From the sequence record ON075799: DNA of 64,000 bases. One strand, 5' to 3'. The translations under genes and the position numbers were made by a program. This document shows positions 8,642 through 30,604 of this stretch, in pieces. Numbering within the stretch: the first letter of the stretch is position 1; every line of letters starts with the position of its first letter. The notes below the pieces were generated by a model. That model ran no database searches. It was not told the origin of the DNA and saw only the letters and a program-made list of their open reading frames with translations. Source of the DNA: Escherichia phage vB_EcoM_TH18.

Positions 8642-8642
8642 A

Positions 8643-9602: not shown

Positions 9603-9604
9603 AT

Positions 9605-10957: not shown

Positions 10958-11033
10958 AATCTCAACCCTCCTGAATATCCGTGATTCCCTTTATTTAACG
11001 ACGCTGGCTCACGGTGGCACTCTCGTCAATAAA

Positions 11034-11357: not shown

Positions 11358-11408
11358 TAAGTTTTCTCCTCCGAAAACAATAAACATAGTTTATTTCGTG
11401 TGCCACAT

Positions 11409-16255: not shown

Positions 16256-16373
16256 TCTCAAAAACGCACCTGTGAATCAGATTTGCAAATGTAGTCCACA
16301 GATAGGTAAAAACATCAACGCAAATCGATTCTCCGCTGGATCTACAGAGTAAATTTTCAATTTTCGGAGAAAA

Positions 16374-16748: not shown

Positions 16749-16841
16749 TTTTTGTTGTGTTTCTGGTAATCAACTGGTATGTTTATTACAGGGAGTGATA
16801 ACCACTCCCGTGTTACTTGTTTTATACAGGAGTATTAATAT

Positions 16842-17827: not shown

Positions 17828-18064
17828 TTTAAGGGGGAGTGTTGAGAAGCATTGCGTATTACAAATTCAAATGTTGGGAGAAACTCTATGATTTGAGCTA
17901 CCTTATTTTTGGGAATCTCCCTGTCACTGAAGACATTAAACACAAAATGTATCTTTCATACATGAAATACCGTCTCCACGAAAGAAAGAGTGGTTGATGA
18001 GAATGTTATAATGCCCTGTAGAGAGTGTCTACAGGGCTTTAATGCTTAATCACAGGACTTACCA

Positions 18065-18895: not shown

Positions 18896-19158
18896 TATTT
18901 TATCACTGATATTTGTTTTCCCTGTGATATTTTTGTCACAGGGAAAGTTTCAATAGTGGATATTTTCTTGATACTTTAAATTCCTACCAGAAATTTAAAT
19001 TCTGTAAATTTAGAAAACTATTACTTATAGGCGTTTCGACACAATTTTGTTATGAAAGCCTTGTTTTTATATAAAAACCTGTTTTAGCATGGGTGGTAGG
19101 ATCACACTCCATACTACCTTTATTCCTACAGATGAGCATCTCCATGTTCGAAAACTCG

Positions 19159-19370
19159 GTTCTCGATCGAAAATTCATTTTCCAGATCGTATTTGCTCCT
19201 TACGGAGAAAATTTTTTAGGGCTACAAGTTTCAGTTCTCGATCGGTTTTTCGATTTCAAAATCGTATTTGTTTTTTCTTGCGAAATTTTTCGCACGCTCA
19301 GTTCTCGATCGAGTTTTCAAAATCGAAATCGTATTTGCTCTATAGTGCGAAAAAATTTTTATGGGTATCA
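19159..19370. repeat. three tandem ~67-75 bp repeats with internal dyads
   Basis: Units begin gttctcgatcg at ~19159, 19234, 19301 and share ...atcgtatttg...gcgaaa; internal palindrome tgcgaaatttttcgca. Confidence 0.75.
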
Positions 19371-19742
19371 TAATTCTATCACACACTTAAACGCAAAGCA
19401 ACATAAAAATTTTTGTTGAATGATAATCATTCTCATTTGCAGAATGACAGGTAGGATCAGTGTCTTATCCTCCCCCGTTGACCATCGTCGCCGTAGTTTG
19501 AAGTTTATAGCCGTTCTCGGCTTATCTCTTTGTTAGAGATAGATTACCATAATTGATAAAGAAAGCAAGCGTTAATTGTAATCTTTACGTTTCTTTACAA
19601 ATTTATTTTAGACAAACTACCGGCGATCGACCTTCCAACCAGCGCCCTGGTATGTTAGCCCCGCCTTTACGCCGTGGGGATGGCGTTGCCTCTTCTGTAT
19701 GTTAGGCATTATAAGCCCAATCCCTGGGCTTGTCAAACATTT

Positions 19743-20006: not shown

Positions 20007-20102
20007 TTTTTCTATTCCTCTGTTAGTTGGTTGTCAGAATTGTATCTATAACCAACCAGGTTAGCAAGATAAATAAAAGAGAAAAATTTTTTAAAAATAC
20101 TA

Positions 20103-20131
20103 TTGACAGCTAGATAGTATAGGTCTACTAT
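20103..20131 (+). promoter_or_regulatory. sigma70-like promoter (TTGACA, 17-nt spacer, TACTAT)
   Basis: Consensus -35 and near-consensus -10 about 55 nt upstream of the ATG at 20186. Confidence 0.55.
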
Positions 20132-20185
20132 GTGCACATCAAGGCGATACACCGCCACCAACCAACCTAAAAGGGGTAAATCAAT

Positions 20186-20809
20186 ATGAAAACCATTGTT
20201 AACGCTGAGAATGTATCTTTCGATAAGTTGAACGACGCACAAAAAGAAAAAGCCATTGATCTTATTCGTGAGCGTGAAAGAGAAAGCGCCGATAATTTCT
20301 TTGCGGATAGTGTCATTGAAGACTATAAGAATGACATTTTACCAGAGTACGGGATCGATGACGCGGTTATCTATTGGTCAGGATTCTGGTCGCAAGGCGA
20401 CGGCGCATCTATCAGCACTGATCGCGTGGATATTGAAAAATTTTTAAGAAAAGTTAAATCTTTAACAAAATTTAGAGGTATCCGCAAACTATTTGATCTT
20501 GGTGAATATAGTCAGTTATACGCAAGCATTGAGCGGGATAATTACAGCCGCTACCATCATGAAAATACTGTTTCCGGTTACGTTGAAACTATGTATTGTG
20601 GTGATTTAACGGCAAAACAGGAAGATCTAGCCAATCAGCTTGAAAACTTGTTAACTGAAACGATCCGCGATCTGTCTTGTAAACTTTACAGAGATTTAGA
20701 ATCAGCCTATGATGACCAGTTTACAGATGAAGCCATCACCGAATCAATTGAAGCCAATGATTATCGTTTTGATATTGATGAAGATGGAGAAGTTTACGCT
20801 ATCGCTTAA
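20186..20809 (+). CDS. hypothetical acidic protein (207 aa)
   Basis: ORF with RBS aaaggggtaaatcaat-ATG and own promoter. Confidence 0.6.
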   Translation: MKTIVNAENVSFDKLNDAQKEKAIDLIRERERESADNFFADSVIEDYKNDILPEYGIDDAVIYWSGFWSQGDGASISTDRVDIEKFLRKVKSLTKFRGIRKLFDLGEYSQLYASIERDNYSRYHHENTVSGYVETMYCGDLTAKQEDLANQLENLLTETIRDLSCKLYRDLESAYDDQFTDEAITESIEANDYRFDIDEDGEVYAIA

Positions 20810-20896
20810 AAGTACTTGCATTCAGTTTTAAAATAGTATTATACTACTAAAACAGGACGGGGAACTGCTCCCCGTCACATTCAGGAGATCATCAAA

Positions 20897-21109
20897 ATGG
20901 CTAATATTCGCACCTTGTTAAAAAATGCAAAGCAAGTTTTATTTTCCGATCACGATTATTTCAATAAAGACATTACAGGCGTAAAGAATATCAAAGACGT
21001 AAAAAATGTCATGGGTATCTATTGCAATATGAAGCGAGTAGGCACATTTGGCAATAAAGTATTATATCAGGCAGGTGACTATAATTTTACTTTGACAATT
21101 ATTTCATAA
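20897..21109 (+). CDS. hypothetical protein (70 aa)
   Basis: ORF with RBS caggaga; GC hairpin in 5' UTR. Confidence 0.5.
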   Translation: MANIRTLLKNAKQVLFSDHDYFNKDITGVKNIKDVKNVMGIYCNMKRVGTFGNKVLYQAGDYNFTLTIIS

Positions 21110-21174
21110 AACCACTTGCAAAGTTATATAGCTCTGTTATACTACCAACATTGACAAACGAGAGGTAAATAAAA

Positions 21175-21531
21175 ATGGCAATCCAGGCAATCATGTTAGA
21201 ACTTACAGATTTCCGTAATACTGTAAAAAATTTATCTAAGAAACAGGTTGACAATATCATCAACGGATACCGTAGCAAGATTAAAGATCTTCCGCTTAAA
21301 CGCGATCAACATGCGGCTAATATGATGTTTAATGCTATGATTAAAAAGATGATCCAATGTGATCTTTCTCTGGCTTATGAATACGCTGGCGATCTCTTTG
21401 CAACGTATAACAAGCCCGTGCTAGGTATGAGCACCACGGAAGAATTACACGCCTTAAATCTGCGGCAAGATGCTTGGGATAATATGCACCGCGTTATGGT
21501 GTGGGTAGAAAGCGGTAAAATTTATCAATAA
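21175..21531 (+). CDS. hypothetical protein (118 aa)
   Basis: ORF with RBS gagaggtaaat. Confidence 0.55.
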   Translation: MAIQAIMLELTDFRNTVKNLSKKQVDNIINGYRSKIKDLPLKRDQHAANMMFNAMIKKMIQCDLSLAYEYAGDLFATYNKPVLGMSTTEELHALNLRQDAWDNMHRVMVWVESGKIYQ

Positions 21532-21586
21532 AAGTAGTTGACTTTTAGTTATGCCGTGATAGAATACACGGCATAGATAAGAGAAA
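21531..21586 (+). promoter_or_regulatory. promoter with dyad operator-like element, copy 1 of a 56-nt direct repeat
   Basis: TTGACT-17-TAGAAT with inverted repeat atgccgtg...cacggcat bracketing the -10; near-identical copy at 25765-25820. Confidence 0.6.
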
Positions 21587-21607
21587 CTACTTATCAGAGT
21601 TTAAAAG

Positions 21608-21826
21608 ATGAAAAATATTACGGGTAAAACCGAACTATTAAAGGCGCTTTCTGTTGGTGAGTCAGCTTTATGGGTATGTGAAAAAGATCGCCTACCATCG
21701 CGAGAGATGGCCTTATTTAAGGCTTTATCTCTGAAGCTGAAAATTAAATTATCCCAAAAATTAGCGGTTGTTGCCGCACCGAGGGAAACCGCTTTCAGTG
21801 TTGTAATGGTTAAACGGTTGGAGTAG
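21608..21826 (+). CDS. hypothetical protein (72 aa)
   Basis: ORF downstream of the repeat promoter; RBS weak. Confidence 0.45.
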   Translation: MKNITGKTELLKALSVGESALWVCEKDRLPSREMALFKALSLKLKIKLSQKLAVVAAPRETAFSVVMVKRLE

Positions 21827-21912
21827 AAAAAAATTAAAAATTATCTTGACAAGCAAAACAGCAAAAATTAAACTTACACACAGTTAAACAAACAATATTG
21901 ACGAGGTAAATC

Positions 21913-22284
21913 ATGAAACAGTTAACCGCTTCCCAAAAAACAATGATCCGTGAGTATGTTTTAAATTCTCTTTCTTTTGATCTTGAATCTGATCTCAAAC
22001 AAGATCAGATTCAAGAATTAAAAAACCGCTTTGAATCTGAATACTGGTACGATAGCAACAAGAAACGCTATCAAAATGATAAAGTACAAGGCCTTAAAAA
22101 CTGGCTACAAGGCTTGCCAAGCGGTGTTGATATTGATTTCACTTATTACGATATTGAGCAACGCCTTAAGGATTTTGGAATCATCACCGACACGACCAGA
22201 GAAAGCACCATTGAAAAATATGTTTCTGAGTGGTGGGATCTAGTAGCGCCGTTTTATGTGGGTCTGATCGTAAACTTAAAATAA
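21913..22284 (+). CDS. hypothetical protein (123 aa)
   Basis: ORF with RBS gaggtaaatc and upstream TTGACA-17-TAAACT. Confidence 0.55.
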   Translation: MKQLTASQKTMIREYVLNSLSFDLESDLKQDQIQELKNRFESEYWYDSNKKRYQNDKVQGLKNWLQGLPSGVDIDFTYYDIEQRLKDFGIITDTTRESTIEKYVSEWWDLVAPFYVGLIVNLK

Positions 22285-22361
22285 TTCTTGAAAACTGTTT
22301 TAAATTGGCTTAAATTAAAGGGGTGAATTTAATCACCCCCAACATGAAAGAGGTTAATCAA

Positions 22362-22673
22362 ATGAATACTTATTTTTCTACTCGTTCACTTGCACGCATT
22401 GCAGCGAAAGAAACAGGCGGTAAAGTTTTAGACAATGGCAAAGATTCACCGATCGGTAAACGTTGGCAGGTTATCCCCGGTTATGTTGTCGAAGCCTCCC
22501 AGGATACAGCAAAACAACGCGCGGAGATGGAAAATAAACCAGTAGTTACCTTATCCATCGGCAAGCGTAGCAATGTAGCGAATAAAGCCCGTAAGGCGCT
22601 TTATTACGCCATCAATTACGCAAGAAATAATAAAACTGTACCAGTTTATCATAAGCGTTCATTTAAGAAATAA
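22362..22673 (+). CDS. hypothetical basic protein (103 aa)
   Basis: Start refined to MNTYF (RBS agaggttaatcaa); ORF-track start is a GTG inside the 5' UTR hairpin. Confidence 0.5.
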   Translation: MNTYFSTRSLARIAAKETGGKVLDNGKDSPIGKRWQVIPGYVVEASQDTAKQRAEMENKPVVTLSIGKRSNVANKARKALYYAINYARNNKTVPVYHKRSFKK

Positions 22674-22743
22674 TTTTTAATTAGATAAAAAAGCGCCCTA
22701 GGAAATGGGCGCTAAACAAAAACACTTAAAGAGGTAAATTATT

Positions 22744-23094
22744 ATGACTAATATTGCAGAAGCTTTTCAAAAAGCTATCGAAAATAAAAACGCTGAGTTG
22801 TCTTTAACTTCTCTGGATTTTACGGATGTGTACGGTAACACTTATTTTGTTTATGAGCTTGCTTTTACTTGTCCTGAGTTAAAAACATGGGAAACGTTGC
22901 ATAAATCTCGCGAGCTGCAATATGGTTATGGCGATCATGTTCTTCATGTTGCAATGAAAGACCTTTCAACTATCGCCGAGGTAAAATCTGAGGCCGCATA
23001 TATTACCCGTTGGGCGCATGACAACGGCTTAAAAATTAGTGTCAACAAGCGCACCAATTGCCGGAAAAAAGATTTAAAACAGTTTATCGCTTGA
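22744..23094 (+). CDS. hypothetical protein (116 aa)
   Basis: ORF with RBS agaggtaaatt; GC hairpin in 5' UTR. Confidence 0.55.
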
Positions 23095-23119
23095 TCCTGT
23101 TAATCATCTTGGTGGTTGT

Positions 23120-23470
23120 ATGATTCAGTTTTATATAATCATCGCGGCGCTTGCAATTTACTTAGGATTGCACAAAAAAGTATTCAGGTTAATTCTCTGG
23201 TTTTATTACGAGTACAGGATCAGAATGGTTTTCCATTATATTGAATACTCTTTCCACGGTGAGAGATACCACACAAGGAGATCCGGCCCATTAAATGATC
23301 TTGAGGGAAACGGTTTAATCTGTGAGGTTAAAAAGCGTGGCGGGAAAATTCTTTACCACAAAGAGGGCACTTTTGATTATATTGATGAGGTGATTAATTT
23401 TAGGCAACAAGCCGTAAAAGATCACGCAAGCAAAATAATCAACGGCAGCTATAAACGCAAAGCGGGGTAA
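23120..23470 (+). CDS. hypothetical protein with N-terminal TM helix (116 aa)
   Basis: N-terminus MIQFYIIIAALAIYLGL hydrophobic. Confidence 0.5.
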   Translation: MIQFYIIIAALAIYLGLHKKVFRLILWFYYEYRIRMVFHYIEYSFHGERYHTRRSGPLNDLEGNGLICEVKKRGGKILYHKEGTFDYIDEVINFRQQAVKDHASKIINGSYKRKAG

Positions 23471-23471
23471 T

Positions 23472-23654
23472 ATGCGGAATTTTGAAAAAATTGTTAAAGC
23501 TAATCGCCTGGAATACGGGGAAACAGACGAAAAACGGGAACGGGTAGGCAAACGCCACAAGCCTAAAAAGGTTCCTAAATTGTGGTGCCCTGATAAATAC
23601 GACCACAAATTAAAACAACGCATCGCTGAAAAACAGCGATTAAATGCAAGATAA
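23472..23654 (+). CDS. hypothetical basic protein (60 aa)
   Basis: ORF immediately followed by a rho-independent terminator. Confidence 0.45.
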   Translation: MRNFEKIVKANRLEYGETDEKRERVGKRHKPKKVPKLWCPDKYDHKLKQRIAEKQRLNAR

Positions 23655-23660
23655 CAGACA

Positions 23661-23686
23661 AGGCCGGAACTATCCGGCCTTTTTAG
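23661..23686 (+). terminator. rho-independent terminator
   Basis: aggccgga-actat-ccggcct followed by TTTT. Confidence 0.7.
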
Positions 23687-23873
23687 CACCTAGTAGCGCC
23701 TGTAACGATTAAAAAGGCCAACGGTGGCATGATGCACCACAAAATAAAATAGCTCGTTAGAGAGTGTTTTAGAGGCCTTAAAATCGATCCGAAAAATATC
23801 TATAAAAATGCTTGCAATGCTTTCCCGCTATCGTTATAGTGTTCCCAACAAGCAAGCAAACGAGGTAACGGCA

Positions 23874-24011
23874 ATGATTGAGATTCTTAAAAATCCTATT
23901 TTGTGTGGTATGGTTGTTTCTGTGTCACTTCCGATCGTGCTGTTAGTCGTTAGCGAAATAGATGATTTTATTTTCAATAAAAGACTTGCCAACAAGTCAA
24001 AAACAAATTAA
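23874..24011 (+). CDS. small membrane peptide (45 aa)
   Basis: Start refined to MIEIL with RBS gaggtaacggca; hydrophobic core LCGMVVSVSLPIVLLVV. Confidence 0.4.
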   Translation: MIEILKNPILCGMVVSVSLPIVLLVVSEIDDFIFNKRLANKSKTN

Positions 24012-24048
24012 TATAGTACCAACATACTAACTAGCGAGGTGATTTAAT

Positions 24049-24267
24049 ATGTTTGGTTTTATTGTTCTATCTTGTTCTCTTTCTGTTACTGCTGCAAAGG
24101 TAGAATGTAACTACACTGTAAAAGAGACTTTTAATGATGAAAAGTCTTGCAATGTATACGAAAATAATTATAAACTAGGAGACGGGGAGCAGTTCGGGAT
24201 CTGTGATGAATTAAAGGACGGTATCAAGAAAGGCGATAAGCGCCCGATCTTGGTCCTGAAAAAATAA
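24049..24267 (+). CDS. small secreted or lipo-protein (72 aa)
   Basis: N-terminal hydrophobic segment MFGFIVLSCSLSVTAA; RBS gaggtga. Confidence 0.5.
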   Translation: MFGFIVLSCSLSVTAAKVECNYTVKETFNDEKSCNVYENNYKLGDGEQFGICDELKDGIKKGDKRPILVLKK

Positions 24268-24308
24268 TTTTTCTAATCATGTTGATCAATTTTTAAGAGG
24301 TGAATAAA

Positions 24309-24596
24309 ATGTTTGAAGTTTTCGCGGGTATGTGTTTTTATACAGCTTTGGCAATTCGTCAGTGTGATGATTATATCGTTGAATCATACGATGATCAGCT
24401 GACTTGCGAAATAGTCGCTAATGACTACGGCAAAAAAGATCGCTGGATTAATCCGGCTTGCATACCATCCCCAGAGGTAGAAGCCATGCCGGAAGGGGAA
24501 GAGGTATCAGATCCAGTTGTGGCGGTATCCTCCTTTTTCGTTGACAACCTGGACGCCCAAGAATTGATCGACATGTATGTAAAAAATCAAAAATAA
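24309..24596 (+). CDS. hypothetical acidic protein (95 aa)
   Basis: Start refined to MFEVF (RBS aagagg 8 nt upstream); ORF-track GTG start lies in the RBS. Confidence 0.5.
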   Translation: MFEVFAGMCFYTALAIRQCDDYIVESYDDQLTCEIVANDYGKKDRWINPACIPSPEVEAMPEGEEVSDPVVAVSSFFVDNLDAQELIDMYVKNQK

Positions 24597-24602
24597 CGCT
24601 TG

Positions 24603-24640
24603 ACGTTGATTTGTGCCGCTTTATAATAGGCGGCATAGGC
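24603..24640 (+). promoter_or_regulatory. sigma70-like promoter (TTGACG-17-TATAAT) with dyad around the -10
   Basis: Inverted repeat tgccgc...gcggca flanks TATAAT; shares CGGCATA motif with other promoters of this block. Confidence 0.5.
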
Positions 24641-24686
24641 AAGCGAAAGCGGATATAAATCTTAAACAAGTTAAGAGAGGTAAATC

Positions 24687-25007
24687 ATGGAACAAGCGAA
24701 TAAATTTTTCTTTCTGGCTGGGATCGTGGATAATGTGAAATGTGATTTCAAGCGTGAAAATGATAAGACGTTACTCACTTTCTGCGATATGCTTGATCAT
24801 GAGAATGCCGACACGTTACGAATCGAGATCCGCACGATAACCAATATCGACAATTTAAGCCGTTTAATTTATAAATCTCATTCTATAGCCTACAACCTGG
24901 AAACATCAACAAGCTGCCTCCAACAAGGAGAGAGCTTGCCCATTCTAAATAGTGCCGATGTATTTGGCGCGGTTGTTGCAATTGTAAATGATGTTTTTTC
25001 TCGTTGA
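24687..25007 (+). CDS. hypothetical protein (106 aa)
   Basis: ORF with RBS agagaggtaaatc. Confidence 0.55.
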   Translation: MEQANKFFFLAGIVDNVKCDFKRENDKTLLTFCDMLDHENADTLRIEIRTITNIDNLSRLIYKSHSIAYNLETSTSCLQQGESLPILNSADVFGAVVAIVNDVFSR

Positions 25008-25223
25008 TTGGTGTTAATATTATGTTAGAGAATATTGTGTTCTTGTGTGGTGTCGTTCTTGCTGTTGTGGTTGGCCTCCTGGCGACGATGGCGAATATTG
25101 TGATCTCAAACAACCTGGCAGGGTAAAAATTTTTAAAAATAGTATTGACATACTTGCGGCATATGGTATTATTTACCACATGAAGGGGCAAGATTGACTT
25201 GCCTCACTAACGAAAGGTAAATA

Positions 25224-25493
25224 ATGATGAACATTTCTAAAACTACTTTTAACTTTGCTAAAAAGCGCGGTATTGAGCTTGAGCTGATCGAAGCGGATGA
25301 TCGCTTGGTCCTGGCTTTTTATGAGGCTAAAAATGAATGTGAATGGATGTTCTCTTATAATGTTAATCATGATTGCCTAACATGGCGCGGCAATATCTAT
25401 CTTTCAAACGAAGTAAAAGAGGAGTTACCCGCCACGATCACGACTGAGAAAAAACTACGTGAGGTTATTGATTTCATCTCTAAAAATATCTAA
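25224..25493 (+). CDS. hypothetical protein (89 aa)
   Basis: ORF with RBS aaaggtaaat and TTGACA-17-TATTAT promoter upstream. Confidence 0.55.
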   Translation: MMNISKTTFNFAKKRGIELELIEADDRLVLAFYEAKNECEWMFSYNVNHDCLTWRGNIYLSNEVKEELPATITTEKKLREVIDFISKNI

Positions 25494-25540
25494 GATTACA
25501 TGAAAAGGGGCGAAAGCCCCTACCGAAGAAGGTAATAAAA

Positions 25541-25765
25541 ATGGATAAAGTAACAAAGATTGAGCATGAGGTAATTGACTTGGCACGGGCCAACAAGCCA
25601 TTTGATAAGATTTATTCTAAGGAGAATAAAGAGATCTTGAAAGACCTAACGCAAGGTCAAAAAGATGGCTTGCGCCGCTTATATCGTGAGGCGTATGACT
25701 ATTTTCGTTGGTGGGAAATAGAAGAGGCTAACGCGAAAATAGAAGGCCTAGAAAATTTAGTATAA
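25541..25765 (+). CDS. hypothetical protein (74 aa)
   Basis: ORF with RBS gaaggtaat; GC hairpin ggggcgaaagcccc in 5' UTR. Confidence 0.5.
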   Translation: MDKVTKIEHEVIDLARANKPFDKIYSKENKEILKDLTQGQKDGLRRLYREAYDYFRWWEIEEANAKIEGLENLV

Positions 25766-25820
25766 AAGTAGTTGACTTTTAGTTATGCCGTGATAGAATG
25801 CACGGCATAGATAAGAGAGA
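25765..25820 (+). promoter_or_regulatory. promoter with dyad operator-like element, copy 2 of the 56-nt direct repeat
   Basis: Differs from the 21531-21586 copy by a single base (tagaatG vs tagaatA). Confidence 0.6.
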
Positions 25821-25860
25821 CGGCACAAGCCATTGATTAAACTTAAAGAGGTAAATTATT

Positions 25861-26262
25861 ATGAATACTTACAAAACTGTTTTTAATTTCGACAATTTCA
25901 AAGCTATCTGCGACGACCAGATCGGCAAGTGCCGTAAAGAAAAAGGATTCTATAAATCTTATAAGTTGATTGCGGTTGTTGATGAAGAGATCACCGAAGT
26001 GGCAACGCTCAACCTGTACCACACTAACGCTACTAATTACGCTTGCTTATGGATGCACTGGGCCAATATTAAAGGTTGGGATCATGGCTATGTTGGCGGG
26101 AAAGCAAGCGGATACGGTTACAACAGGGAGGAGGCCGCGATCCATGTCGCAGCTAATAAACTCGGTATCACTGGCAACTGGTTTAACGGTGAACAATTGT
26201 TAGATGCAATGGCACGTAATTTTGATATGAAAGGCGCGAAGGTTATCTGCTGCAACGCGTGA
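25861..26262 (+). CDS. hypothetical protein (133 aa)
   Basis: ORF with RBS agaggtaaatt downstream of repeat promoter copy 2. Confidence 0.55.
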   Translation: MNTYKTVFNFDNFKAICDDQIGKCRKEKGFYKSYKLIAVVDEEITEVATLNLYHTNATNYACLWMHWANIKGWDHGYVGGKASGYGYNREEAAIHVAANKLGITGNWFNGEQLLDAMARNFDMKGAKVICCNA

Positions 26263-26309
26263 TCACTCAATAGCGGGGAATATTCCCCGCTTATAGATAG
26301 GGCATAATC

Positions 26310-26768
26310 ATGATTTACGATCTTAAATATTACGACGAATTGAGTATTGCAGCACAATTAACCGCCCGTGTCAATATTATAGCAGACCTGGAAAATCACC
26401 ATAGAAAGCGCATAGTCCAGACTATAGCCAGTTTTAAAAATGATCCTCATAAAGTGATTAATGACACGAAGCACATTCAACGCCTCATAAACGGCGCAAA
26501 GACGCTTTATAGTGTACGTCATTACGGGGATGATTACCTTATAAAGTTTATTCGTGATAATCGTTTGATCTTTACCCCTGGTGGTAGCTATATAACCTAT
26601 AGCGACGGCTTTATGATGATTATTGGAGGTAAGGAATACACCCCCACGGCCTCACAACAAAAAGCATTGAGAGAGCTTTATATAGCCATTAATGAGCGTG
26701 GTCAATCATATCATGATTGGTTATATAGAATGCACCACAAAATAAAAATTTTTATGATTCCCGCTTGA
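26310..26768 (+). CDS. hypothetical protein (152 aa)
   Basis: ORF from six-frame track; GC hairpin agcgggga...tccccgct upstream. Confidence 0.5.
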   Translation: MIYDLKYYDELSIAAQLTARVNIIADLENHHRKRIVQTIASFKNDPHKVINDTKHIQRLINGAKTLYSVRHYGDDYLIKFIRDNRLIFTPGGSYITYSDGFMMIIGGKEYTPTASQQKALRELYIAINERGQSYHDWLYRMHHKIKIFMIPA

Positions 26769-26846
26769 CACCTACATAAAAACGCCTTATTATCTATCTC
26801 ATAAGGCGGGGAGCGGTTCCCCGCCACACTTAAGAGGTAAATAATC

Positions 26847-27236
26847 ATGCGTAACCTGGTTCATGTTTCCAACGTTGAAAAATTCCAATCTTTACAGGCT
26901 ATCGTAAACGATACAGCGCCTTTTATCGTTAAAGGCTTGATTGCCAGAATGCAACAGAAAAAACCTGAAATCTGGGCTAATTATTGCCTTGATAATGATG
27001 ATCAGGCTGCCGCTTTCATGGTTGGCGAACTGCTGGGAAGTGTAGGGAACATGCTACCGGAAAACATCGCAGAAGAGATCACCTACCGTTATAATATGGC
27101 GATAACTTATCAGGAAGTCGCACAATTTAACCTGATGGATGACGACGAACAACAGGATCAGGAAATTTTCTGGGAGTATGCCGACCGCCAAGCCGTTTTT
27201 GATGAGCGGTTAGAGATGTACTATAACGAATGGTAA
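26847..27236 (+). CDS. hypothetical acidic protein (129 aa)
   Basis: ORF with RBS agaggtaaat; promoter TTGACA-17-TTATTA with dyad cgccttat/ataaggcg. Confidence 0.55.
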   Translation: MRNLVHVSNVEKFQSLQAIVNDTAPFIVKGLIARMQQKKPEIWANYCLDNDDQAAAFMVGELLGSVGNMLPENIAEEITYRYNMAITYQEVAQFNLMDDDEQQDQEIFWEYADRQAVFDERLEMYYNEW

Positions 27237-27332
27237 TAAACAGGCCGCTAATATGCGGCCTTTAATTTTTCTATTGACAATATCGCACTAACCTTTAAAA
27301 TGTTCTTTGTTAAGTATCTTTAAAGGTGTAAC

Positions 27333-27512
27333 ATGTTCCAATCAATCATTGATATTCTATCAGTCGCTAATAACGTGATGAACGTAATTACAATGATTAA
27401 ACTTGTTGCGTGGTTTGTTTCCGGGGATTATCGCTATATTAAATGGCGCAAGCCAACCATAAAAGACGTAGTGAAGATCTCATTTGAAGCAATGACAGAA
27501 TATTATCTATAA
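27333..27512 (+). CDS. hypothetical small protein (59 aa), not in ORF track (<60 aa)
   Basis: ATG at 27333 with RBS aaaggtg; translation MFQSIIDILSVANN... Confidence 0.4.
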   Translation: MFQSIIDILSVANNVMNVITMIKLVAWFVSGDYRYIKWRKPTIKDVVKISFEAMTEYYL

Positions 27513-27868
27513 CGATTATTTTTTGTTGACATCCAAAAGATTTTTCAATACCATTGATCACATAAGGGCGGCAATGATGCTGCCCACAACTGAAAGAGAA
27601 ATCACCATGGCGCTTAAAAAACTAACAAGTAATACACGTTGGGATGAAATCGGCGGGGAAGTATACATTTTTACCCGTAAACCAGGTGACCAAAAATGAT
27701 CAAAGGCTTTTACTTGCCACCCTGCAACCATAGACCTGATAAAAAGGGAAGGTTTACGCGAAGCAGTAGCAAGAAGTTTACTGATCCCTTATAAAAAATA
27801 GTTTGAAATTAATTTCACTATTGATAAAATATTATATAAAACTTTAACCTAAAAAGGGGTAAATTAAT

Positions 27869-28069
27869 ATGAAACGTTTTACTTATGGTGTGGTTGATGG
27901 TTATGTATCTAACCGTTTTTACAATACCGAGCGTGGTGCTAAAAATGCGGCTACCCGTGAACATGGCAATAGTGTAAATTTACAAGTTGGCTATATTAGC
28001 AAAATTAGCGGTATGTTTATTCCGGTTGCTCAACGCGGCATGTATTGCATAAACTGGATGCCAATGTAA
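27869..28069 (+). CDS. hypothetical protein (66 aa)
   Basis: ORF with RBS aaaggggtaaat. Confidence 0.5.
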   Translation: MKRFTYGVVDGYVSNRFYNTERGAKNAATREHGNSVNLQVGYISKISGMFIPVAQRGMYCINWMPM

Positions 28070-28084
28070 AAAGGAGTAATAAAA

Positions 28085-28276
28085 ATGGATGTATCACAAG
28101 TTAGAAAGGTATTAGCAGCGTTACGCTATCACAATCATAGCAAGGTGAAGAATGATCCTGATTATGTTGATTCAAGTCTGGAGGAAGACACCTTGCAAGC
28201 TATAAGCCATATGCAGGAATTGCTTAAGCGTATGACAGAGAAGAACAGATCTGACTATATAGGTGACGAGATCTAA
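28085..28276 (+). CDS. hypothetical protein (63 aa)
   Basis: ORF with RBS aaaggagtaat. Confidence 0.5.
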   Translation: MDVSQVRKVLAALRYHNHSKVKNDPDYVDSSLEEDTLQAISHMQELLKRMTEKNRSDYIGDEI

Positions 28277-28372
28277 TCTTTACAATCTCGCCTATTGACA
28301 CCGGATCACGCTTACATTATTATCTATCTTGTAGGGCAAGCAATACCGCAAGCCCACAAAGAGGACAATAAA

Positions 28373-28741
28373 ATGAGCAAATCAGCAATTAAAGCACTTG
28401 AAAAAGCGCAAAAAGTGATCGCTACTTCCACCACTGGCGCAAGTATTAATCTGATCGCTTACTTGGAAGATGAAACTATCCGTAAAAATTGGCGTAATAC
28501 TGATTTGCTGGCTTGCTTATTGATTAATAGTGTTGCTAATGCTTTCCAGTGTGAAACAGCCGAGAGCCTGGAAGAAAACTTGTTTGACAATATGGATCAA
28601 GCCATTGAAACCTATATCCAATCAAATCTGGATAGCTGGAACAGTAAAACATGGCCCGACAGCTTACGCGATACAACTGACCAACTGATCCGCCTTGCGG
28701 TGATGGTTGAACGCGATAACGTTTACAGCCGCACAAAGTAA
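28373..28741 (+). CDS. hypothetical protein (122 aa)
   Basis: Start refined to MSKSAIK with RBS aagagga; promoter TTGACA-17-TATTAT upstream. Confidence 0.55.
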   Translation: MSKSAIKALEKAQKVIATSTTGASINLIAYLEDETIRKNWRNTDLLACLLINSVANAFQCETAESLEENLFDNMDQAIETYIQSNLDSWNSKTWPDSLRDTTDQLIRLAVMVERDNVYSRTK

Positions 28742-28750
28742 GATAGTACA

Positions 28751-28779
28751 AAGGGCGCTTAATGCGCCCTTTCTTTTTG
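28751..28779 (+). terminator. strong rho-independent terminator closing the plus-strand block
   Basis: aagggcgc-ttaa-tgcgccctt followed by TTCTTTTT. Confidence 0.75.
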
Positions 28780-29165
28780 CCCTAACAAACATGATAAGTT
28801 TTATCTATCAAAACACCACACAGAAAGAAAGTGAATAAAACGCGGTATCGAGCTAAACGAGGGTGGGCAATACAACGGCAAGGCTAAACAATTAAGGCTG
28901 TTATAACGCGATTTAGGCCGCTTAAAATCGATCCCCACCACAAACAACACCCACAAAATGACCAAAACGACACAACATGACTTAAATGATAACCATTCCC
29001 AACAACATAAGCATTTTTATGCAATTTGAGTGAATATCTATTTAAATGATAATGACTCTCAACAACAAACTAACACGACCGAAGCGATTCAATCGCCTAC
29101 CACAAAATTAATCACTTGTAAAGAGTAATTTGAAAAAAGCTGCGTAGGTGGCGCGACCGTAGGGA

Positions 29166-29440
29166 GCGACACAATAACGCAGTAGTAGCCCCTCACCCCT
29201 CCTTCCAGTCGCCCCCGGTATCGGGGCAGCGTTATTGTGTCGCTAAGCGACAACGCGTTAACAATTTTGCAAGATTTTATTAATACTTTAACTGTTATAA
29301 TTTTATTGCAAAATTGTTAACCTACTGCGTTATTGTGTCACGTAGTGATTAGTTACATATGTAACTAACAGCTATCACTGCAAAATTGTGTCACGTAGTG
29401 ATTAGCTGAGAATCAGCTAACCCGTAAAACGGGCTAAATT
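29166..29440. repeat. cluster of inverted and direct repeats flanking an AT-rich core (candidate origin or regulatory hub)
   Basis: gcgacacaataacgcagtag at 29166-29185 with reverse-complement copies at 29229-29243 and 29321-29340; 16-bp dyad 29257-29272/29306-29321; direct repeat attgtgtcacgtagtgattag at 29332 and 29385; palindromes gttacatatgtaac and agctgagaatcagct. Confidence 0.7.
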
Positions 29441-30604
29441 GTGTCCGGTACGGATGAGATAATCTCTCATTAATCCCCGATTATTACGCAGTAAATCACC
29501 ATGAATCACCTGTTTTTAACCCTGTTATTGTGTTCTTGCCCAGGGATAACCGCTTACTATGCGGTTAAATGCTGTATAGTCGCTACGCGATTAAGCGCGA
29601 TGCGCTTAACCTGCAAAGCAGGCTTCTAAGTGCCTGAAATGCCAGATCAATTTGGTCACTGCGTGATCATGATTGCGACAATAATTTGCTTATGATTTGC
29701 TATTTATTTGTTTGTAGTTGGTTATAGTTGTTATGGTTTGTTTGTTAATAGTTGCTATAATTTTGCTTTATTTGATTTTATTTGTTAAACACCCTTTTAT
29801 CATTCCTCTTACATTTTCGCAATATTTATTTTTGTTATCGTTTTCCCTCATTTCATTTCGTTATTGAAAACAAGAATTATTATCAATGCGCCTTAACAGG
29901 CTGACAGGTCTGTTAGTGGGCTAGCTCTCTGTGTGGTTATGTGTCGGCTGTTATTGTTAGCTTGCTTATTGTTGTGTGGTGTATGTACCAGTTAACTAGT
30001 ACATTGTGTGGTGCGCATAACGTGTATTATGTTAAATCGCTAAGCCCACAAATCAGGTGACTTGTCAATAACAATAAGTGCTGTGTGCGGTAGGTCTGAC
30101 CTATCAGTGTGCCCCTTTGTTGTGTGGTGCTTCCAATGGCTGGTCTGCCTGCTGTCTGTGCTGCGTCAGGAATCGAGGGGACTCGATCGCAATAGCTGTA
30201 AGATATTTTGTAAAGATTCGTAGTTTTTCTTGACACCCACAATCGTCTGCCTAACCCTTCAGAGATAAATACTTCAGAGATTTATCTGGGCTTTTTACCC
30301 TTCAGGTATAGAGACGTGTGTTTTATCCCTCACTTCTGAGATAAAGCCGTAGATATTTTCACTCTTCACATCATGTGCAAGTTAATACATGTATGTCTTT
30401 ACAGACGGGGTGGGGTAACAATCAGGAAGTGGTCTGGCAGTGATAACGCACTGGATAAAAGCTCTGTGTGGATTGTCGATGATATTTGTGTGTGTGGGAA
30501 ATGCTGATAGGCAAGAGATAAGACACTTGTCTCCGGCAGGGGTGGGGTGTGGAAAAGAAATGGGCCTGTCCGACCCATTGTGTTACAGAGATGAAACGCC
30601 TATC

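What the first reader, a model, noticed from the sequence alone, without database searches (positions are those of the whole stretch)
20103..28779. Island of about 22 small plus-strand genes, each with its own promoter, UTR hairpin and RBS
Between 20.1 and 28.8 kb nearly every 45-207 aa ORF is preceded by a TTGACA/TATAAT-like promoter, often a G/C-rich hairpin, and a GAGGTAAAT-type RBS. The block ends at a strong terminator. None of the products shows a motif I can assign. This layout resembles host-takeover or counter-defence gene arrays.
Basis: partly seen in the sequence, partly recalled or inferred. Interest (0 to 1): 0.7.

Follow-up and report, generated by a model that had tools for sequence, protein, structure and literature searches.

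The report
Phage early-gene array with promoter–hairpin cassettes
This is the variable early-gene region of an rV5-related E. coli phage: 24 small genes of unknown function driven by about 16 repeated host-type promoter, stem-loop and ribosome-site cassettes, which also appear to be the points where related phages swap these genes.

Summary
The window is an Avunavirus (Vequintavirinae) phage: 100% identical to Escherichia phages 18-1-2, 19-1-2 and 24-2-1, and 93% to Av-05.

**What is there**
- Positions 20186-28741 hold 24 plus-strand genes under purifying selection.
- There are 11 strong and 5 moderate sigma-70 promoters, so 16 promoters for 24 genes, not one per gene. Strong plus-strand matches number 12 against 2.4±1.6 expected.
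- Most promoters have A/T-rich UP tracts. Twelve have a G/C-rich stem-loop.
- The ribosome-site motif RRGGTAAWT is almost confined to the island.
- Three true terminators are present.

**Evidence of function**
- Against Av-05, stems keep pairing in 6 of 7 changed pairs, 4 of them by double substitutions.
- Related arrays in Justusliebigvirus and Phapecoctavirus carry an even more uniform cassette.
- Homology breakpoints fall inside the cassettes, including one clear hybrid cassette.

**What it matches**
This matches the PeSL ("promoter-early stem-loop") regulatory cassettes of T4-like phages, here in another phage group.

**Gene functions**
- Products stay unassigned. One is a T7 gp1.1-family protein, five have strongly hydrophobic membrane- or signal-like segments, and three are very acidic.
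- Two structure models found no informative fold.
- "Early, host-directed accessory genes" is supported. "Counter-defence" is untested.

The parts
20103..20131 (+). Promoter P1: TTGACA-17-TACTAT with A/T-rich UP tract (20079-20102)
   Evidence: UP region 91% A+T; 87% identical to the UP/-35 of the promoter at 25120-25150 (D6)
20186..20809 (+). g01, 207 aa, very acidic (pI 4.4, net charge -22)
   Evidence: PHROG 5162; 298 homologues, none named and no Pfam domain; AlphaFold pLDDT 92.9; no PDB fold match; 30 synonymous and 9 nonsynonymous codon changes against Av-05
20816..20876 (+). Moderate promoter TTGCAT-18-TATACT (20816-20845) plus 5' UTR stem-loop GACGGGGA-ACTGC-TCCCCGTC (20856-20876)
   Evidence: against Av-05 all three changes lie in or next to the loop and pairing is kept
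20897..21109 (+). g02, 70 aa
   Evidence: PHROG 12266; 91% aa identity in Schickermooser and 69% in UAB_1, at a different array position
21116..21143 (+). Moderate promoter TTGCAA-16-TATACT with extended -10 TG
   Evidence: the homology block shared with UAB_1 and Schickermooser ends exactly at this -35 (21121/21122)
21175..21531 (+). g03, 118 aa
   Evidence: PHROG 7352; homologues in UAB_1 (78%) and Schickermooser (64%)
21538..21576 (+). Promoter TTGACT-16-TAGAAT with an inverted repeat straddling the -10 (TATGCCGTG / CACGGCATA, 21549-21576)
   Evidence: dG -16.1, z -5.3; 85% duplicate at 25740-25821 (D1); Schickermooser L004 4502 has the same design with a different, still complementary stem
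21608..21826 (+). g04, 72 aa, basic
   Evidence: PHROG 5988
21846..21874 (+). Promoter TTGACA-17-TAAACT with UP tract, no stem-loop
21913..22284 (+). g05, 123 aa
   Evidence: PHROG 11100
22288..22339 (+). Moderate promoter TTGAAA-17-TAAATT plus stem-loop GGGGTGA-ATTTAA-TCACCCC (22320-22339)
22362..22673 (+). g06, 103 aa, very basic (pI 10.3)
   Evidence: PHROG 8127; its N-terminal 35 aa are shared with three other PHROGs
22692..22713 (+). Intergenic stem-loop AGCGCCC-N8-GGGCGCT without a credible promoter (possible half cassette)
   Evidence: the only change against Av-05 is in the loop
22744..23094 (+). g07, 116 aa
   Evidence: PHROG 6246; its RBS segment is 96% identical to that of g17 (D2)
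23120..23470 (+). g08, 116 aa, N-terminal membrane helix; no promoter of its own
   Evidence: PHROG 7903 covers residues 1-114 of this longer reading; hydropathy
23472..23654 (+). g09, 60 aa, basic, T7 gene 1.1 family; start overlaps the stop of g08 (TAATATG)
   Evidence: Pfam PF08200, 27.9 bits against a cut-off of 21
23660..23681 (+). Intrinsic terminator AAGGCCGG-AACTAT-CCGGCCTT followed by TTT
23812..23840 (+). Moderate promoter TTGCAA-17-TATAGT
23874..24011 (+). g10, 45 aa, membrane helix
   Evidence: PHROG 7482; hydropathy 2.6
23983..24014 (+). Moderate promoter TTGCCA-17-TAATAT with inverted repeat GACTTG-CCAA-CAAGTC over the -35
24049..24267 (+). g11, 72 aa, N-terminal signal- or lipobox-like segment (FIVLSC) and paired cysteines
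   Evidence: PHROG 12257; direct reading of the sequence; weak paralogue of g12
24309..24596 (+). g12, 95 aa, acidic (net -13.5); no promoter of its own
   Evidence: PHROG 8255
24600..24639 (+). Promoter TTGACG-16-TATAAT with an inverted repeat straddling the -10 (24610-24639)
   Evidence: dG -15.0
24687..25007 (+). g13, 106 aa
   Evidence: PHROG 7366
25022..25126 (+). g14, 34 aa, membrane helix; no promoter here, but its homologues in UAB_1 and Schickermooser have their own cassette
   Evidence: PHROG 14631 aligns from residue 7 of the annotated ORF
25145..25205 (+). Promoter TTGACA-16-TATTAT (extended -10, UP tract) plus 5' UTR stem-loop GGGGCAAG-ATTGA-CTTGCCTC (25185-25205)
   Evidence: dG -19.3, z -5.4; two double compensatory changes and one GU to GC change against Av-05
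25227..25493 (+). g15, 88 aa
   Evidence: PHROG 6147; marginal Pfam TPK_B1_binding hit, 23.1 against 22 bits, which I regard as unreliable
25506..25521 (+). Intergenic stem-loop AGGGGC-GAAA-GCCCCT without a promoter
25541..25765 (+). g16, 74 aa
   Evidence: PHROG 24380
25772..25810 (+). Promoter TTGACT-16-TAGAAT with an inverted repeat straddling the -10 (duplicate of 21538)
   Evidence: one compensatory G-C to A-T change and one broken pair against Av-05
25861..26262 (+). g17, 133 aa
   Evidence: PHROG 7028; only 2 clusters found in 5.8 billion proteins
26272..26291 (+). Intergenic stem-loop AGCGGGGA-ATAT-TCCCCGCT without a promoter
   Evidence: the change against Av-05 is in the loop
26310..26768 (+). 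g18, 152 aa, basic
   Evidence: PHROG 8549
26765..26825 (+). Promoter TTGACA-17-TATTAT plus 5' UTR stem-loop GGCGGGGA-GCGGT-TCCCCGCC (26805-26825)
   Evidence: compensatory G-C to A-T change against Av-05; the homology block with UAB_1 starts at the -10 (26788)
26847..27236 (+). g19, 129 aa, acidic (net -14.4)
27242..27261 (+). Intrinsic terminator AGGCCGC-TAATAT-GCGGCCT followed by TTTAATTTTT
   Evidence: changes against Av-05 are confined to the loop
27274..27301 (+). Promoter TTGACA-16-TAAAAT
27333..27512 (+). g20, 59 aa, hydrophobic N-terminal half
   Evidence: no PHROG; third-position bias against Av-05
27526..27585 (+). Promoter TTGACA-17-TACCAT plus 5' UTR stem-loop GGGCGGCA-ATGA-TGCTGCCC (27566-27585), the Stephanstirmvirinae-type cassette
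   Evidence: Av-05 is identical up to the -35 and then diverges
27607..27801 (+). g21, homologue of Schickermooser_00282, interrupted by an in-frame TGA at 27697-27699 (TGG in the homologue); 30 aa as it stands
   Evidence: the whole module 27565-27806 is 90-91% identical to UAB_1 and Schickermooser and absent from Av-05
27803..27830 (+). Promoter TTGAAA-16-TAAAAT (extended -10)
   Evidence: homology with Schickermooser ends inside this -35 (27806)
27869..28069 (+). g22, 66 aa
   Evidence: PHROG 7744
28085..28276 (+). g23, 63 aa; no promoter of its own
   Evidence: PHROG 9599; 95% aa identity to Schickermooser_00290
28295..28357 (+). Hybrid cassette. The promoter half (28271-28337) matches the promoter of Schickermooser gene 00292. 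The UTR half, from TAGGGC (28331 onward), matches the UTR of gene 00293.
   Evidence: the same promoter precedes an unrelated gene (gp256) in UAB_1
28373..28741 (+). g24, 122 aa; absent from Av-05, 90% aa identity to Schickermooser_00293
   Evidence: PHROG 15368
28750..28779 (+). Strong intrinsic terminator AAAGGGCGC-TTAAT-GCGCCCTTT followed by CTTTTTG, closing the array
   Evidence: conserved in UAB_1 and Schickermooser

Best explanation
The island is the hyperplastic early-gene region of an Avunavirus (rV5-related) virulent E. coli phage. It consists of small accessory genes, each or each short group preceded by a repeated regulatory cassette. The cassette has an A/T-rich UP tract, a near-consensus sigma-70 promoter, a G/C-rich stem-loop (over the -10, or starting about 4-7 nt into the transcript) and an extended Shine-Dalgarno (RRGGTAAAT-N3-5-ATG).

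Proposed mechanism:
1. Unmodified host RNA polymerase fires these promoters as soon as the DNA enters, giving about 16 short transcription units of 1-3 genes. This is inferred from the sequence.
2. The stem-loops are selected as structures, which is shown by compensatory change. They most likely attenuate read-through between units and give each mRNA a defined, stable 5' end that leaves the ribosome site free whatever ORF follows. This is inferred, by analogy with PeSL stem-loops that were shown to terminate.
3. Because the same 60-100-nt cassettes recur in front of unrelated ORFs within and between phages, homologous recombination between them deletes, inserts and swaps ORFs without breaking expression. 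Breakpoints and a hybrid cassette are shown; the process itself is inferred.

The products are small early accessory proteins with no assignable function. They include a T7 gp1.1-family protein, five small proteins with strongly hydrophobic segments (four membrane-type, one signal- or lipobox-like) and three strongly acidic proteins. Acting on the host or on competitors is the expected role of such proteins, not something shown here.
For: **Identity and context**
- 100% identical to Avunavirus phages 18-1-2, 19-1-2 and 24-2-1, and 93% to Av-05.

**Promoters**
- 12 strong plus-strand matches against 2.4±1.6 expected. There are none on the plus strand elsewhere left of the island and 2 on the island's minus strand.
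- UP regions are 64-91% A+T.

**Ribosome-site motif**
- 10 of 14 window matches lie in the island.

**Stem-loops**
- 45 of 57 promoter-adjacent segments in four phages fold at -8 kcal/mol or lower, against 41% of controls. 39 of 57 have z < -2.
- Against Av-05, 7 stem pairs changed and 6 kept pairing, 4 of them by double substitutions. Loops change twice as fast as stems (0.116 against 0.055 per nt).

**Real genes**
- Excluding the two cassettes not shared with Av-05, 243 codon changes against Av-05 are synonymous and 124 nonsynonymous, with third-position bias (derived from the per-gene counts).
- Intergenic regions are as conserved as the coding sequence.

**Cassette repeats**
- Direct repeats inside the island are almost only regulatory segments.
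- Related arrays in UAB_1 and Schickermooser have 18 and 23 strong plus-strand promoters, against 4 and 1 on the minus strand. They share the stereotyped CACRTAGGGCGG-type hairpin.

**Shuffling**
- About half the genes have homologues in those arrays, in a different order and at 34-95% identity.
- Only 5 of 178 matching phage records cover at least 80% of the island.
- 11 of 14 homology-block ends lie within a cassette or terminator ±10 nt, which covers 13.9% of the island (P about 9e-8).
- There is a hybrid cassette at 28271-28357, and Av-05 diverges immediately after the -35 at 27526.

**Precedent**
- PeSL cassettes of T4-like phages (PMC2839356, PMC4122927).
- Sigma-70 plus UP promoters concentrated among short hypothetical ORFs in Certrevirus (PMC7344957).
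- 146 of 227 genes are dispensable in the Vequintavirinae phage Bas54 (10.1101/2025.11.20.689424).
Against: - There are no transcript data. Timing, start sites and termination are all inferred.
- Seven or eight genes lack a promoter of their own, and four promoters lack a stem-loop.
- Most stem-loops have no U-tract, so they are not canonical intrinsic terminators.
- Cassettes in this window are less uniform than in Stephanstirmvirinae.
- The breakpoint test is confounded, because homology blocks naturally end between genes, which is where cassettes lie. It also rests on three comparison genomes.
- PeSLs were defined in T4-like phages. Here the resemblance is functional and architectural, not shown to be homologous.
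- No product function was established.
Confidence: 0.72

Rival explanations
1. The island is primarily a counter-defence arsenal. Most of its products would inhibit bacterial immune systems (restriction, CRISPR, abortive infection and so on), expressed immediately on entry.
For: - Early, individually promoted, fast-turnover small genes are where anti-defence genes are typically found (general knowledge; 10.1101/2025.11.20.689424 introduction).
- Three products are strongly acidic, like DNA mimics: g01 -22, g12 -13.5 and g19 -14.4.
- Gene content differs even between phages that are 93% identical.
Against: - No product matches any known anti-defence family in Pfam, PHROGs or NCBIfam.
- The confident g01 model has no DNA-mimic or other solved fold. 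g19 is a generic helical bundle.
- Vequintavirinae and relatives are reported to be exceptionally sensitive to restriction-modification systems (PMC8594841).
- Five products have strongly hydrophobic, membrane- or signal-like segments, which suggests envelope roles such as superinfection exclusion rather than immune inhibition.
Confidence: 0.25
2. The stem-loops or inverted repeats are binding sites for a phage or host regulator, on DNA or RNA, that shuts off early expression. They would be operators or RNA targets, not attenuators or stabilisers.
For: - Three inverted repeats are centred on the -10 hexamer, an ideal place for a repressor.
- In Stephanstirmvirinae the 5' arm and its flank (CACRTAGGGCGG) are conserved in sequence, not only in structure.
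- The PeSL authors also speculated about a protein that recognises GGGG...CCCC (PMC2839356).
Against: - Stems differ completely in sequence between equivalent promoters while staying complementary: TATGCCGTG/CACGGCATA here against ATAGCGCC/GGGCGCTAT in Schickermooser.
- Compensatory changes against Av-05 point to selection on pairing, not on a fixed recognition sequence.
- Stem length and register vary.
- No candidate regulator was identified.
Confidence: 0.15
3. The block is one long operon, or a few, and the promoter-like hexamers are by-products of A/T-rich intergenic sequence.
For: - At a lax threshold (9 of 12) the scan finds 45 sites against 35±6 expected, which is not significant.
- Seven or eight genes do lack promoters.
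Against: - At 10 of 12 or better the excess is about 5-fold and strand-specific (12 against 2), and 11 of 12 sites are intergenic at 22-61 nt from start codons.
- Intergenic regions are 91-100% conserved against Av-05 at most positions.
- The same promoters recur at 85-94% identity in other subfamilies.
- Two internal terminators (23660, 27242) split the block.
Confidence: 0.04

Closest known systems
PeSL (promoter-early stem-loop) regulatory cassettes in hyperplastic regions of T4-like phages (RB49/phi1, PST/T4, nt-1/KVP40; Arbiol et al. 2010, PMC2839356; Comeau et al. 2014, PMC4122927)
   Same: - A/T-rich tract, near-consensus sigma-70 promoter, G-run/C-run stem-loop in variable positions (over the -10, over the -35, upstream of the -35, downstream of the -10), and an SD plus start codon at the 3' end.
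- Clustered in front of small ORFans in the most variable genome region.
- Indels and replacements between close relatives have junctions in the cassettes.
- The crossover here at a TAGGGC motif recalls the GGGC motifs noted at T4 deletion junctions.
   Different: - The host phage belongs to Vequintavirinae, not the T4-like group, and nothing shows that the cassettes are homologous.
- The commonest class here and in Stephanstirmvirinae places the stem-loop about 11-13 nt after the -10, so it is transcribed into the 5' UTR. In phi1/RB49 the commonest positions are between -35 and -10 or over the -10.
- Promoter and terminator activity and mini-circle formation are not tested here.
Putative early promoter cluster of Certrevirus phages (CB7, CR3, CR8, CR9; PMC7344957) and the 33 sigma-70 promoters annotated in rV5 (PMC3606486)
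   Same: Same subfamily. Sigma-70-like promoters with UP elements are concentrated in a region of many short hypothetical ORFs that is taken to be the early region. No phage RNA polymerase is present.
   Different: Those papers describe only the promoter (AAAA-N3-TGTTGAC-N19-TATAAT). They do not describe an associated stem-loop, a shared ribosome-site module or cassette-linked gene shuffling.
T7 class I/II early region, including gene 1.1 (Pfam PF08200)
   Same: Small early genes of mostly unknown or host-directed function are expressed by host polymerase from strong promoters. g09 scores above the gathering threshold for the gp1.1 family. Intercistronic RNA hairpins are present.
   Different: T7 uses three tandem promoters and RNase III processing of one long transcript. 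The stems here are 6-12 bp, too short for classical RNase III sites, and promoters are distributed along the array.
Morons of lambdoid phages, and integron gene cassettes
   Same: Autonomous promoter-gene(-terminator) units are added to a genome. In integrons, the cassettes are exchanged at conserved linker sites.
   Different: Morons are thought to insert by illegitimate recombination, without conserved linkers. Integrons need an integrase and attC sites, and no recombinase is evident here.

Membership tests
PeSL-type regulatory cassette array | A/T-rich tract upstream of the -35 | tested here: met
   Positions -57 to -36 are 64-91% A+T for the 11 strong promoters, against 61% for the window. 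Long A/T runs occur at 20079, 21822, 25120 and 26741.
PeSL-type regulatory cassette array | Near-consensus sigma-70 -35 and -10 hexamers with a 16-18 nt spacer | tested here: met
   Eleven intergenic sites match at least 10 of 12 positions and 5 match 9. The excess over shuffles has z of about 6 and is strand-specific.
PeSL-type regulatory cassette array | Stable G/C-rich stem-loop within or next to the promoter | tested here: met
   Twelve of 16 promoters have one: over the -10 (21549, 24610, 25783), over the -35 (23983), upstream of the -35 (27242) or downstream of the -10 (20856, 22320, 25185, 26805, 27566, 28336, and a weak one at 20143). Fold statistics are and compensatory changes.
PeSL-type regulatory cassette array | Shine-Dalgarno and start codon of the next ORF at the 3' end of the cassette | tested here: met
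   RRGGTAAWT lies 4-6 nt before the ATG at 9 genes, and the segments are repeated at 75-96% identity.
PeSL-type regulatory cassette array | Concentrated in a hyperplastic region in front of ORFs of unknown function | tested here: met
   1.38 strong sites per kb here, against 0-0.12 on the same strand elsewhere in the window. All 24 products are of unknown function. Only 5 of 178 matching records cover most of the island.
PeSL-type regulatory cassette array | Indels and replacements between related phages have junctions in the cassettes | tested here: met
   There is a hybrid cassette at 28271-28357. Av-05 diverges right after the -35 at 27526. Blocks end at the -35 hexamers at 21121 and 27806 and at the -10 at 26788. 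In all, 11 of 14 block ends lie in cassettes. Caveat: only three genomes were compared, and intergenic location confounds the test.
PeSL-type regulatory cassette array | Demonstrated promoter and terminator/attenuator activity | not testable with these tools
   Needs reporter fusions or transcript mapping.
PeSL-type regulatory cassette array | Formation of extrachromosomal mini-circles by recombination between neighbouring cassettes | not testable with these tools
   Needs outward-facing PCR or deep sequencing of phage or infected-cell DNA.
PeSL-type regulatory cassette array | Occurs in a T4-like (Tevenvirinae and relatives) genome, as originally described | tested here: not met
   The genome is Vequintavirinae, genus Avunavirus. 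It is therefore filed as an analogue, or a new member of the kind, not as the same element family.
T7 gene 1.1 protein family (Pfam PF08200), for g09 only | Score above the Pfam gathering threshold | tested here: met
   27.9 bits against 21, E 3.2e-6, residues 1-33 on profile positions 1-31 of 40.
DNA-mimic anti-restriction proteins (Ocr/ArdA type), considered for g01, g12 and g19 | Strong net negative charge | tested here: met
   Net charges are -22, -13.5 and -14.4.
DNA-mimic anti-restriction proteins (Ocr/ArdA type), considered for g01, g12 and g19 | Sequence or fold similarity to a known mimic | tested here: not met
Intrinsic (Rho-independent) terminators | G/C-rich stem followed directly by a U-tract on the transcribed strand | tested here: met
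   Met for 23660-23681, 27242-27261 and 28750-28772. Not met for the other nine stem-loops, which are followed by A/C-rich sequence.

The most novel reading that the evidence does not exclude
The conserved promoter/stem-loop cassettes of Vequintavirinae and Stephanstirmvirinae are not just passive homology patches. They would be an active, integron-like gene-exchange system. On this reading the stem-loop with its conserved CACRTAGGGC junction is recognised by a phage-encoded factor, or forms a DNA structure during replication. That would target recombination, excise ORF-plus-cassette mini-circles and move early genes between co-infecting phages of different subfamilies. This would explain near-identical cassettes (85-94%) in front of unrelated ORFs in three genera.
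Probability: 0.15. Interest if true: 0.7.

Novelty: new member of a known kind. Interest (0 to 1): 0.4.

Why it matters
rV5-, phAPEC8- and phi92-like phages are among the commonest E. coli and Salmonella phages isolated, and they are used in therapy cocktails. Yet a third or more of their genes are unassigned.

- **Where new genes enter.** This array is a modular, cassette-linked early region. That locates where these phages gain and lose genes, and it explains mosaicism between two subfamilies.
- **A working parts list.** The analysis gives about 16 predicted strong early promoters with defined 5' UTRs, useful for transcript mapping or phage engineering.
- **A screening list.** It supplies 24 small early proteins (membrane-type, very acidic, very basic, gp1.1-like) to test for host takeover, superinfection exclusion or anti-defence activity.
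- **A wider principle.** It suggests that PeSL-type shuffling, so far documented only in T4-like phages, is a more general way large virulent phages organise their accessory genes.

Tried and rejected
**Function prediction, which led nowhere**
- Pfam, PHROGs and NCBIfam scans of all 24 products gave only 'unknown function' families, the gp1.1 hit and one marginal TPK_B1 hit that I discount.
- PDB sequence searches of g01, g17 and g18, and a g01 profile, found nothing.
- A homologue search for g17 found only 2 clusters.

**Ideas considered and dropped**
- g07/g17 paralogy through a shared YGY...HVA motif: not significant.
- The first plus-strand gene (15977) as an Srd-like anti-sigma factor, as rV5 gp11 is annotated: no such relationship. 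The rV5 unit 11-26 is not the equivalent region.
- Stem-loops as RNase III sites: the stems are only 6-12 bp.
- Stem-loops as minus-strand terminators: several are preceded by A-runs, but the Stephanstirmvirinae versions are preceded by CACRTAG, so this does not generalise.
- Column-based covariation with RNAalifold on a MAFFT alignment of 33 cassettes: it failed because stems differ in length and register. I used per-sequence folds with shuffles and the gap-free comparison with Av-05 instead.

**Other negatives**
- Rfam, tRNA and tandem-repeat scans find nothing inside the island.
- The exact Stephanstirmvirinae-type cassette pattern occurs in only 5 IMG/VR contigs of 97-153 kb.
- No transcriptome study of this phage group was found.

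Full report
**1. What the window is**

The 8.9-kb query is 100% identical to three partial Avunavirus genomes (Escherichia phages 18-1-2, 19-1-2 and 24-2-1). It is 93% identical over 85% of its length to Escherichia phage Av-05 (Vequintavirinae, Avunavirus). Another 170 or so phage records match only short pieces; these are mainly Phapecoctavirus, Justusliebigvirus and Vequintavirus. In the public records every gene under the island is 'hypothetical protein'. The window is about 39% G+C and mostly coded on the minus strand. The island is part of a plus-strand interruption, visible as a reversal of GC skew between 16 and 30 kb.

**2. Checking the observation**

*Genes.*
- Using the deposited annotation as a guide and correcting three starts, I count 24 plus-strand genes between 20186 and 28741.
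- They are real. Against Av-05, substitutions pile up at third codon positions. Excluding the two cassettes not shared with Av-05, 243 changed codons are synonymous and 124 nonsynonymous (derived from the per-gene counts).

*Promoters.*
- Strong sigma-70 matches (at least 10 of 12, spacer 16-18) number 12 on the plus strand of the island. Markov shuffles give 2.4±1.6, with a maximum of 8 in 500.
- Only 2 lie on the minus strand of the island, and none on the plus strand in the 20 kb to the left.
- Eleven of the 12 are intergenic, 22-61 nt upstream of a start codon, and most follow an A/T-rich UP-like tract.
- Five further gaps hold moderate sites of a cTTGCA-N16-18-TATAsT type.
- Seven genes have no promoter and one has only a doubtful one. 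'Each with its own promoter' therefore becomes about 16 units of 1-3 genes.

RRGGTAAWT occurs 14 times in the 64 kb, and 10 of those are in the island on the plus strand, 9 directly before a start codon.

*Terminators.* Three stem-loops with U-tracts are genuine terminators: 23660, 27242 and the closing one at 28750.

**3. The stem-loops are selected structures**

- Twelve of the 16 promoters have a G/C-rich stem-loop. Three straddle the -10 hexamer (21549, 24610, 25783), one covers the -35 (23983) and one lies just upstream (27242). The rest begin 4-13 nt after the -10 (20856, 22320, 25185, 26805, 27566, 28336, and a weak one at 20143).
- Assuming initiation about 7 nt after the -10, which is a textbook value and not measured here, most of the downstream class start at about +4 to +7 of the mRNA.
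- Across the window, Av-05, UAB_1 and Schickermooser, 45 of 57 promoter-adjacent 56-nt segments fold at -8 kcal/mol or lower, against 41% of random segments from the same regions. The means are -13.5 and -7.8 kcal/mol. 39 of 57 have z < -2 against dinucleotide shuffles.
- The gap-free comparison with Av-05 is the cleanest test. In 12 shared hairpins (200 stem nucleotides), 7 pairs changed and 6 still pair. Four of these changed through substitutions on both sides (25189/25201, 25190/25200, 25787/25806, 26806/26824). Only one pair is broken. Loops change at twice the stem rate.
- Equivalent promoters in different phages carry entirely different but complementary stems. An example is TATGCCGTG/CACGGCATA at 21549, against ATAGCGCC/GGGCGCTAT at Schickermooser L004 4502.
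- Intergenic regions as a whole are as conserved as the genes, mostly 91-100%.

**4. The same design, more uniform, in related arrays**

- The small-gene arrays of Salmonella phage UAB_1 (Justusliebigvirus) and Escherichia phage Schickermooser (Phapecoctavirus) share about half of the island's gene families. The order is shuffled and identity ranges from 34 to 95%.
- They have 18 and 23 strong plus-strand promoters in 14-16 kb, against 4 and 1 on the other strand.
- Almost all of these promoters share one stereotyped cassette: AAAAAnnnTTGACA-N16/17-TAnnnT-nTAyCACrTAG-GGCGG(c/g)AAT(a/g)GT(g/t)CCGCC-acaacagAAGAGAGAnnnATCATG.
- Window cassettes at 25145, 26765, 27526 and 28295 are of this type.
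- The exact pattern is rare in IMG/VR: 5 contigs, all 97-153 kb. The sequence family is therefore lineage-restricted.

**5. Cassettes are where genomes differ**

- Direct repeats inside the island are almost exclusively regulatory pieces. They include an 82-nt promoter cassette in three copies, UP/-35 segments, -10/UTR segments and ribosome-site segments up to 96% identical, all in front of unrelated ORFs.
- Av-05 lacks two cassettes, g21 and g24.
- At 27526 the window and Av-05 are identical through TTGACAT and diverge from the next base. The same gene, g22, is therefore served by different promoters and UTRs in two phages that are 93% identical.
- The g21 module (27565-27806) is 90-91% identical to UAB_1 and Schickermooser. 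Its borders are the first base of the stem-loop and the middle of the next -35.
- The cassette at 28271-28357 is a hybrid. Its promoter half equals the promoter of Schickermooser gene 00292. From the shared TAGGGC onward it equals the UTR of gene 00293, the g24 homologue. Genes 00291 and 00292 are missing. In UAB_1 the same promoter drives an unrelated gene.
- Overall, 11 of 14 homology-block ends lie in a cassette or terminator ±10 nt, which makes up 13.9% of the island (P about 9e-8). The caveat is that blocks tend to end between genes anyway.

**6. What is it like**

These properties match the definition of PeSLs, 'promoter-early stem-loops'. PeSLs were described in the hyperplastic regions of T4-like phages. 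There the promoters were shown to be very strong and the stem-loops to terminate. Recombination between PeSLs was shown to delete, insert and circularise ORFans (PMC2839356, PMC4122927).

Those authors stated that there was no evidence yet for such plasticity outside T4-like phages. Within Vequintavirinae, a sigma-70 plus UP promoter concentrated among short hypothetical ORFs has been noted for Certrevirus (PMC7344957), and 33 sigma-70 promoters are annotated in rV5 (PMC3606486). Neither paper mentions the stem-loop, the ribosome-site module or cassette-linked shuffling, and my literature searches found no such report.

I therefore file the island as a new member of a known kind. It meets six of the defining sequence-level features. 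Two features need experiments. The taxonomic one (a T4-like genome) is not met, so I claim analogy rather than homology.

**7. The products**

- All 24 fall in PHROG families of unknown function, or none in the case of g20.
- The only family assignment is g09 to the T7 gene 1.1 family, which is itself of unknown function.
- g08, g10, g14 and g20 have strongly hydrophobic segments. g11 has a signal- or lipobox-like N-terminus and is a weak tandem paralogue of g12.
- g01, g12 and g19 are very acidic. g06 and g09 are very basic.
- g01 has about 300 homologues without any annotation. It gives a confident α/β model with invariant GFWSQGDGA and Y-H-ENT motifs, but no solved fold matches.
- g19 is a helical bundle with only generic matches.
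- Nothing supports 'counter-defence' specifically either. The group's reported sensitivity to restriction-modification systems argues against effective anti-restriction, at least in K-12 (PMC8594841).
- In the related phage Bas54, 146 of 227 genes are dispensable in the laboratory (10.1101/2025.11.20.689424). That fits an accessory role, although the island's homologues were not singled out in that study.

**8. Mechanism and confidence**

- Shown here: the strand-specific promoter excess, the shared ribosome-site module, structural selection on the stems, repetition of cassettes before unrelated ORFs, and junctions and a hybrid within cassettes.
- Inferred: immediate-early transcription by host RNA polymerase (about 0.85).
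- Inferred: the stem-loops act as attenuators or insulators and define the 5' end (about 0.6, with a regulator-binding role as the main alternative).
- Inferred: homologous recombination between cassettes is the cause of the gene shuffling (about 0.7).
- Overall confidence in the combined statement is 0.72.

**9. Verdict**

The finding is a correct description of a real feature, somewhat overstated. Its interpretation is half right. An early-gene array behind host-type promoters is ordinary for a large virulent phage. The added value is that the array is built from PeSL-like cassettes, shared across two subfamilies, with direct sequence evidence for structural selection and cassette-mediated exchange. 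Interest is moderate, at 0.4.

Noticed in passing
window 18896-19742, read on the minus strand: An 850-nt non-coding gap lies just upstream of the island.
- It has a perfect TTGACA-17-TATAAT promoter at 19736-19708, with the inverted repeat AGCCCAgggatTGGGCT in its spacer.
- A conserved G/C-rich stretch of about 100 nt follows, then a second promoter-like site near 19397-19369.
- Three repeats of about 70 nt follow (AAATACGAT-N18-20-TCGATCGAGAAC, 19340-19150).
- About 550 nt of the gap is conserved at 68-80% in 239 phage records of many genera (Escherichia, Klebsiella, Salmonella, Cronobacter, Pectobacterium, Erwinia, Shewanella), mostly unannotated. Synteny is kept in Seunavirus and Mydovirus.
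- Rfam finds nothing, the fold z-score is only -1.05, and there is one compensatory pair among 5 sequences.
- It could be a replication origin or a small-RNA locus; this is unresolved.
   Followed up: partly
window 28780-30600: A 1.8-kb non-coding stretch lies between the converging island and the minus-strand genes.
- It carries repeats spaced 53 nt apart (GC...ATTGTGTCACGTAGTGATTAG at 29327, 29380 and 29433).
- It has perfect 16-18-nt inverted repeats (29165-29185 with 29229-29244 and 29322-29339) and further repeats at 30254-30348.
- In Salmonella phage UAB_1 the homologous array lies about 1.1 kb from the right direct terminal repeat. This may therefore be the genome-end, packaging or origin region, and may correspond to the 'non-coding' box drawn for rV5 (PMC3606486).
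   Followed up: partly
window 27607-27801: g21 carries an in-frame TGA (27697-27699) where its 90%-identical homologue in phage Schickermooser has TGG (Trp). The downstream 33 codons remain in frame and conserved. This is either a recent nonsense mutation or a read-through site. The deposited annotation starts the gene at an ATG (27577) that lies inside the 5' UTR stem-loop.
   Followed up: partly
window 47774-48014, minus strand: A group I catalytic intron (Rfam RF00028, 79.8 bits, full-length match) lies inside the minus-strand gene block.
   Followed up: no
window 5815-11486, minus strand: A cluster of 16 tRNA genes (ARAGORN). Rfam adds one more tRNA-like match at 8411-8483.
   Followed up: no
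window 24049-24596: g11 and g12 are weak tandem paralogues (E 1e-4 over the first 41 residues). They share a hydrophobic N-terminus and the pattern C-x-Y-x-V-x-E-x-[FY]-[ND]-D-x3-C. g11 has a lipobox-like FIVLSC. They may be exported proteins, for example for receptor masking or superinfection exclusion as with T5 Llp. That comparison is from memory and untested.
   Followed up: partly
window 15977-18895: A separate plus-strand block of six genes (92-276 aa) lies to the left. It has no strong sigma-70 promoter on its strand and no cassette-type ribosome site, so it is organised differently from the island. Its first gene has homologues only in Avunavirus and in about 38-kb Vibrio and about 135-kb Shewanella phages.
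   Followed up: partly
window about 41-64 kb compared with Av-05 KM190144 41.7-62 kb: In Av-05 the region from 41.7 kb onward is annotated as plus-strand tail and baseplate genes. The window keeps a minus-strand GC skew to its end. Gene order or orientation therefore seems to differ between the source genome and Av-05 beyond the shared early region.
   Followed up: no
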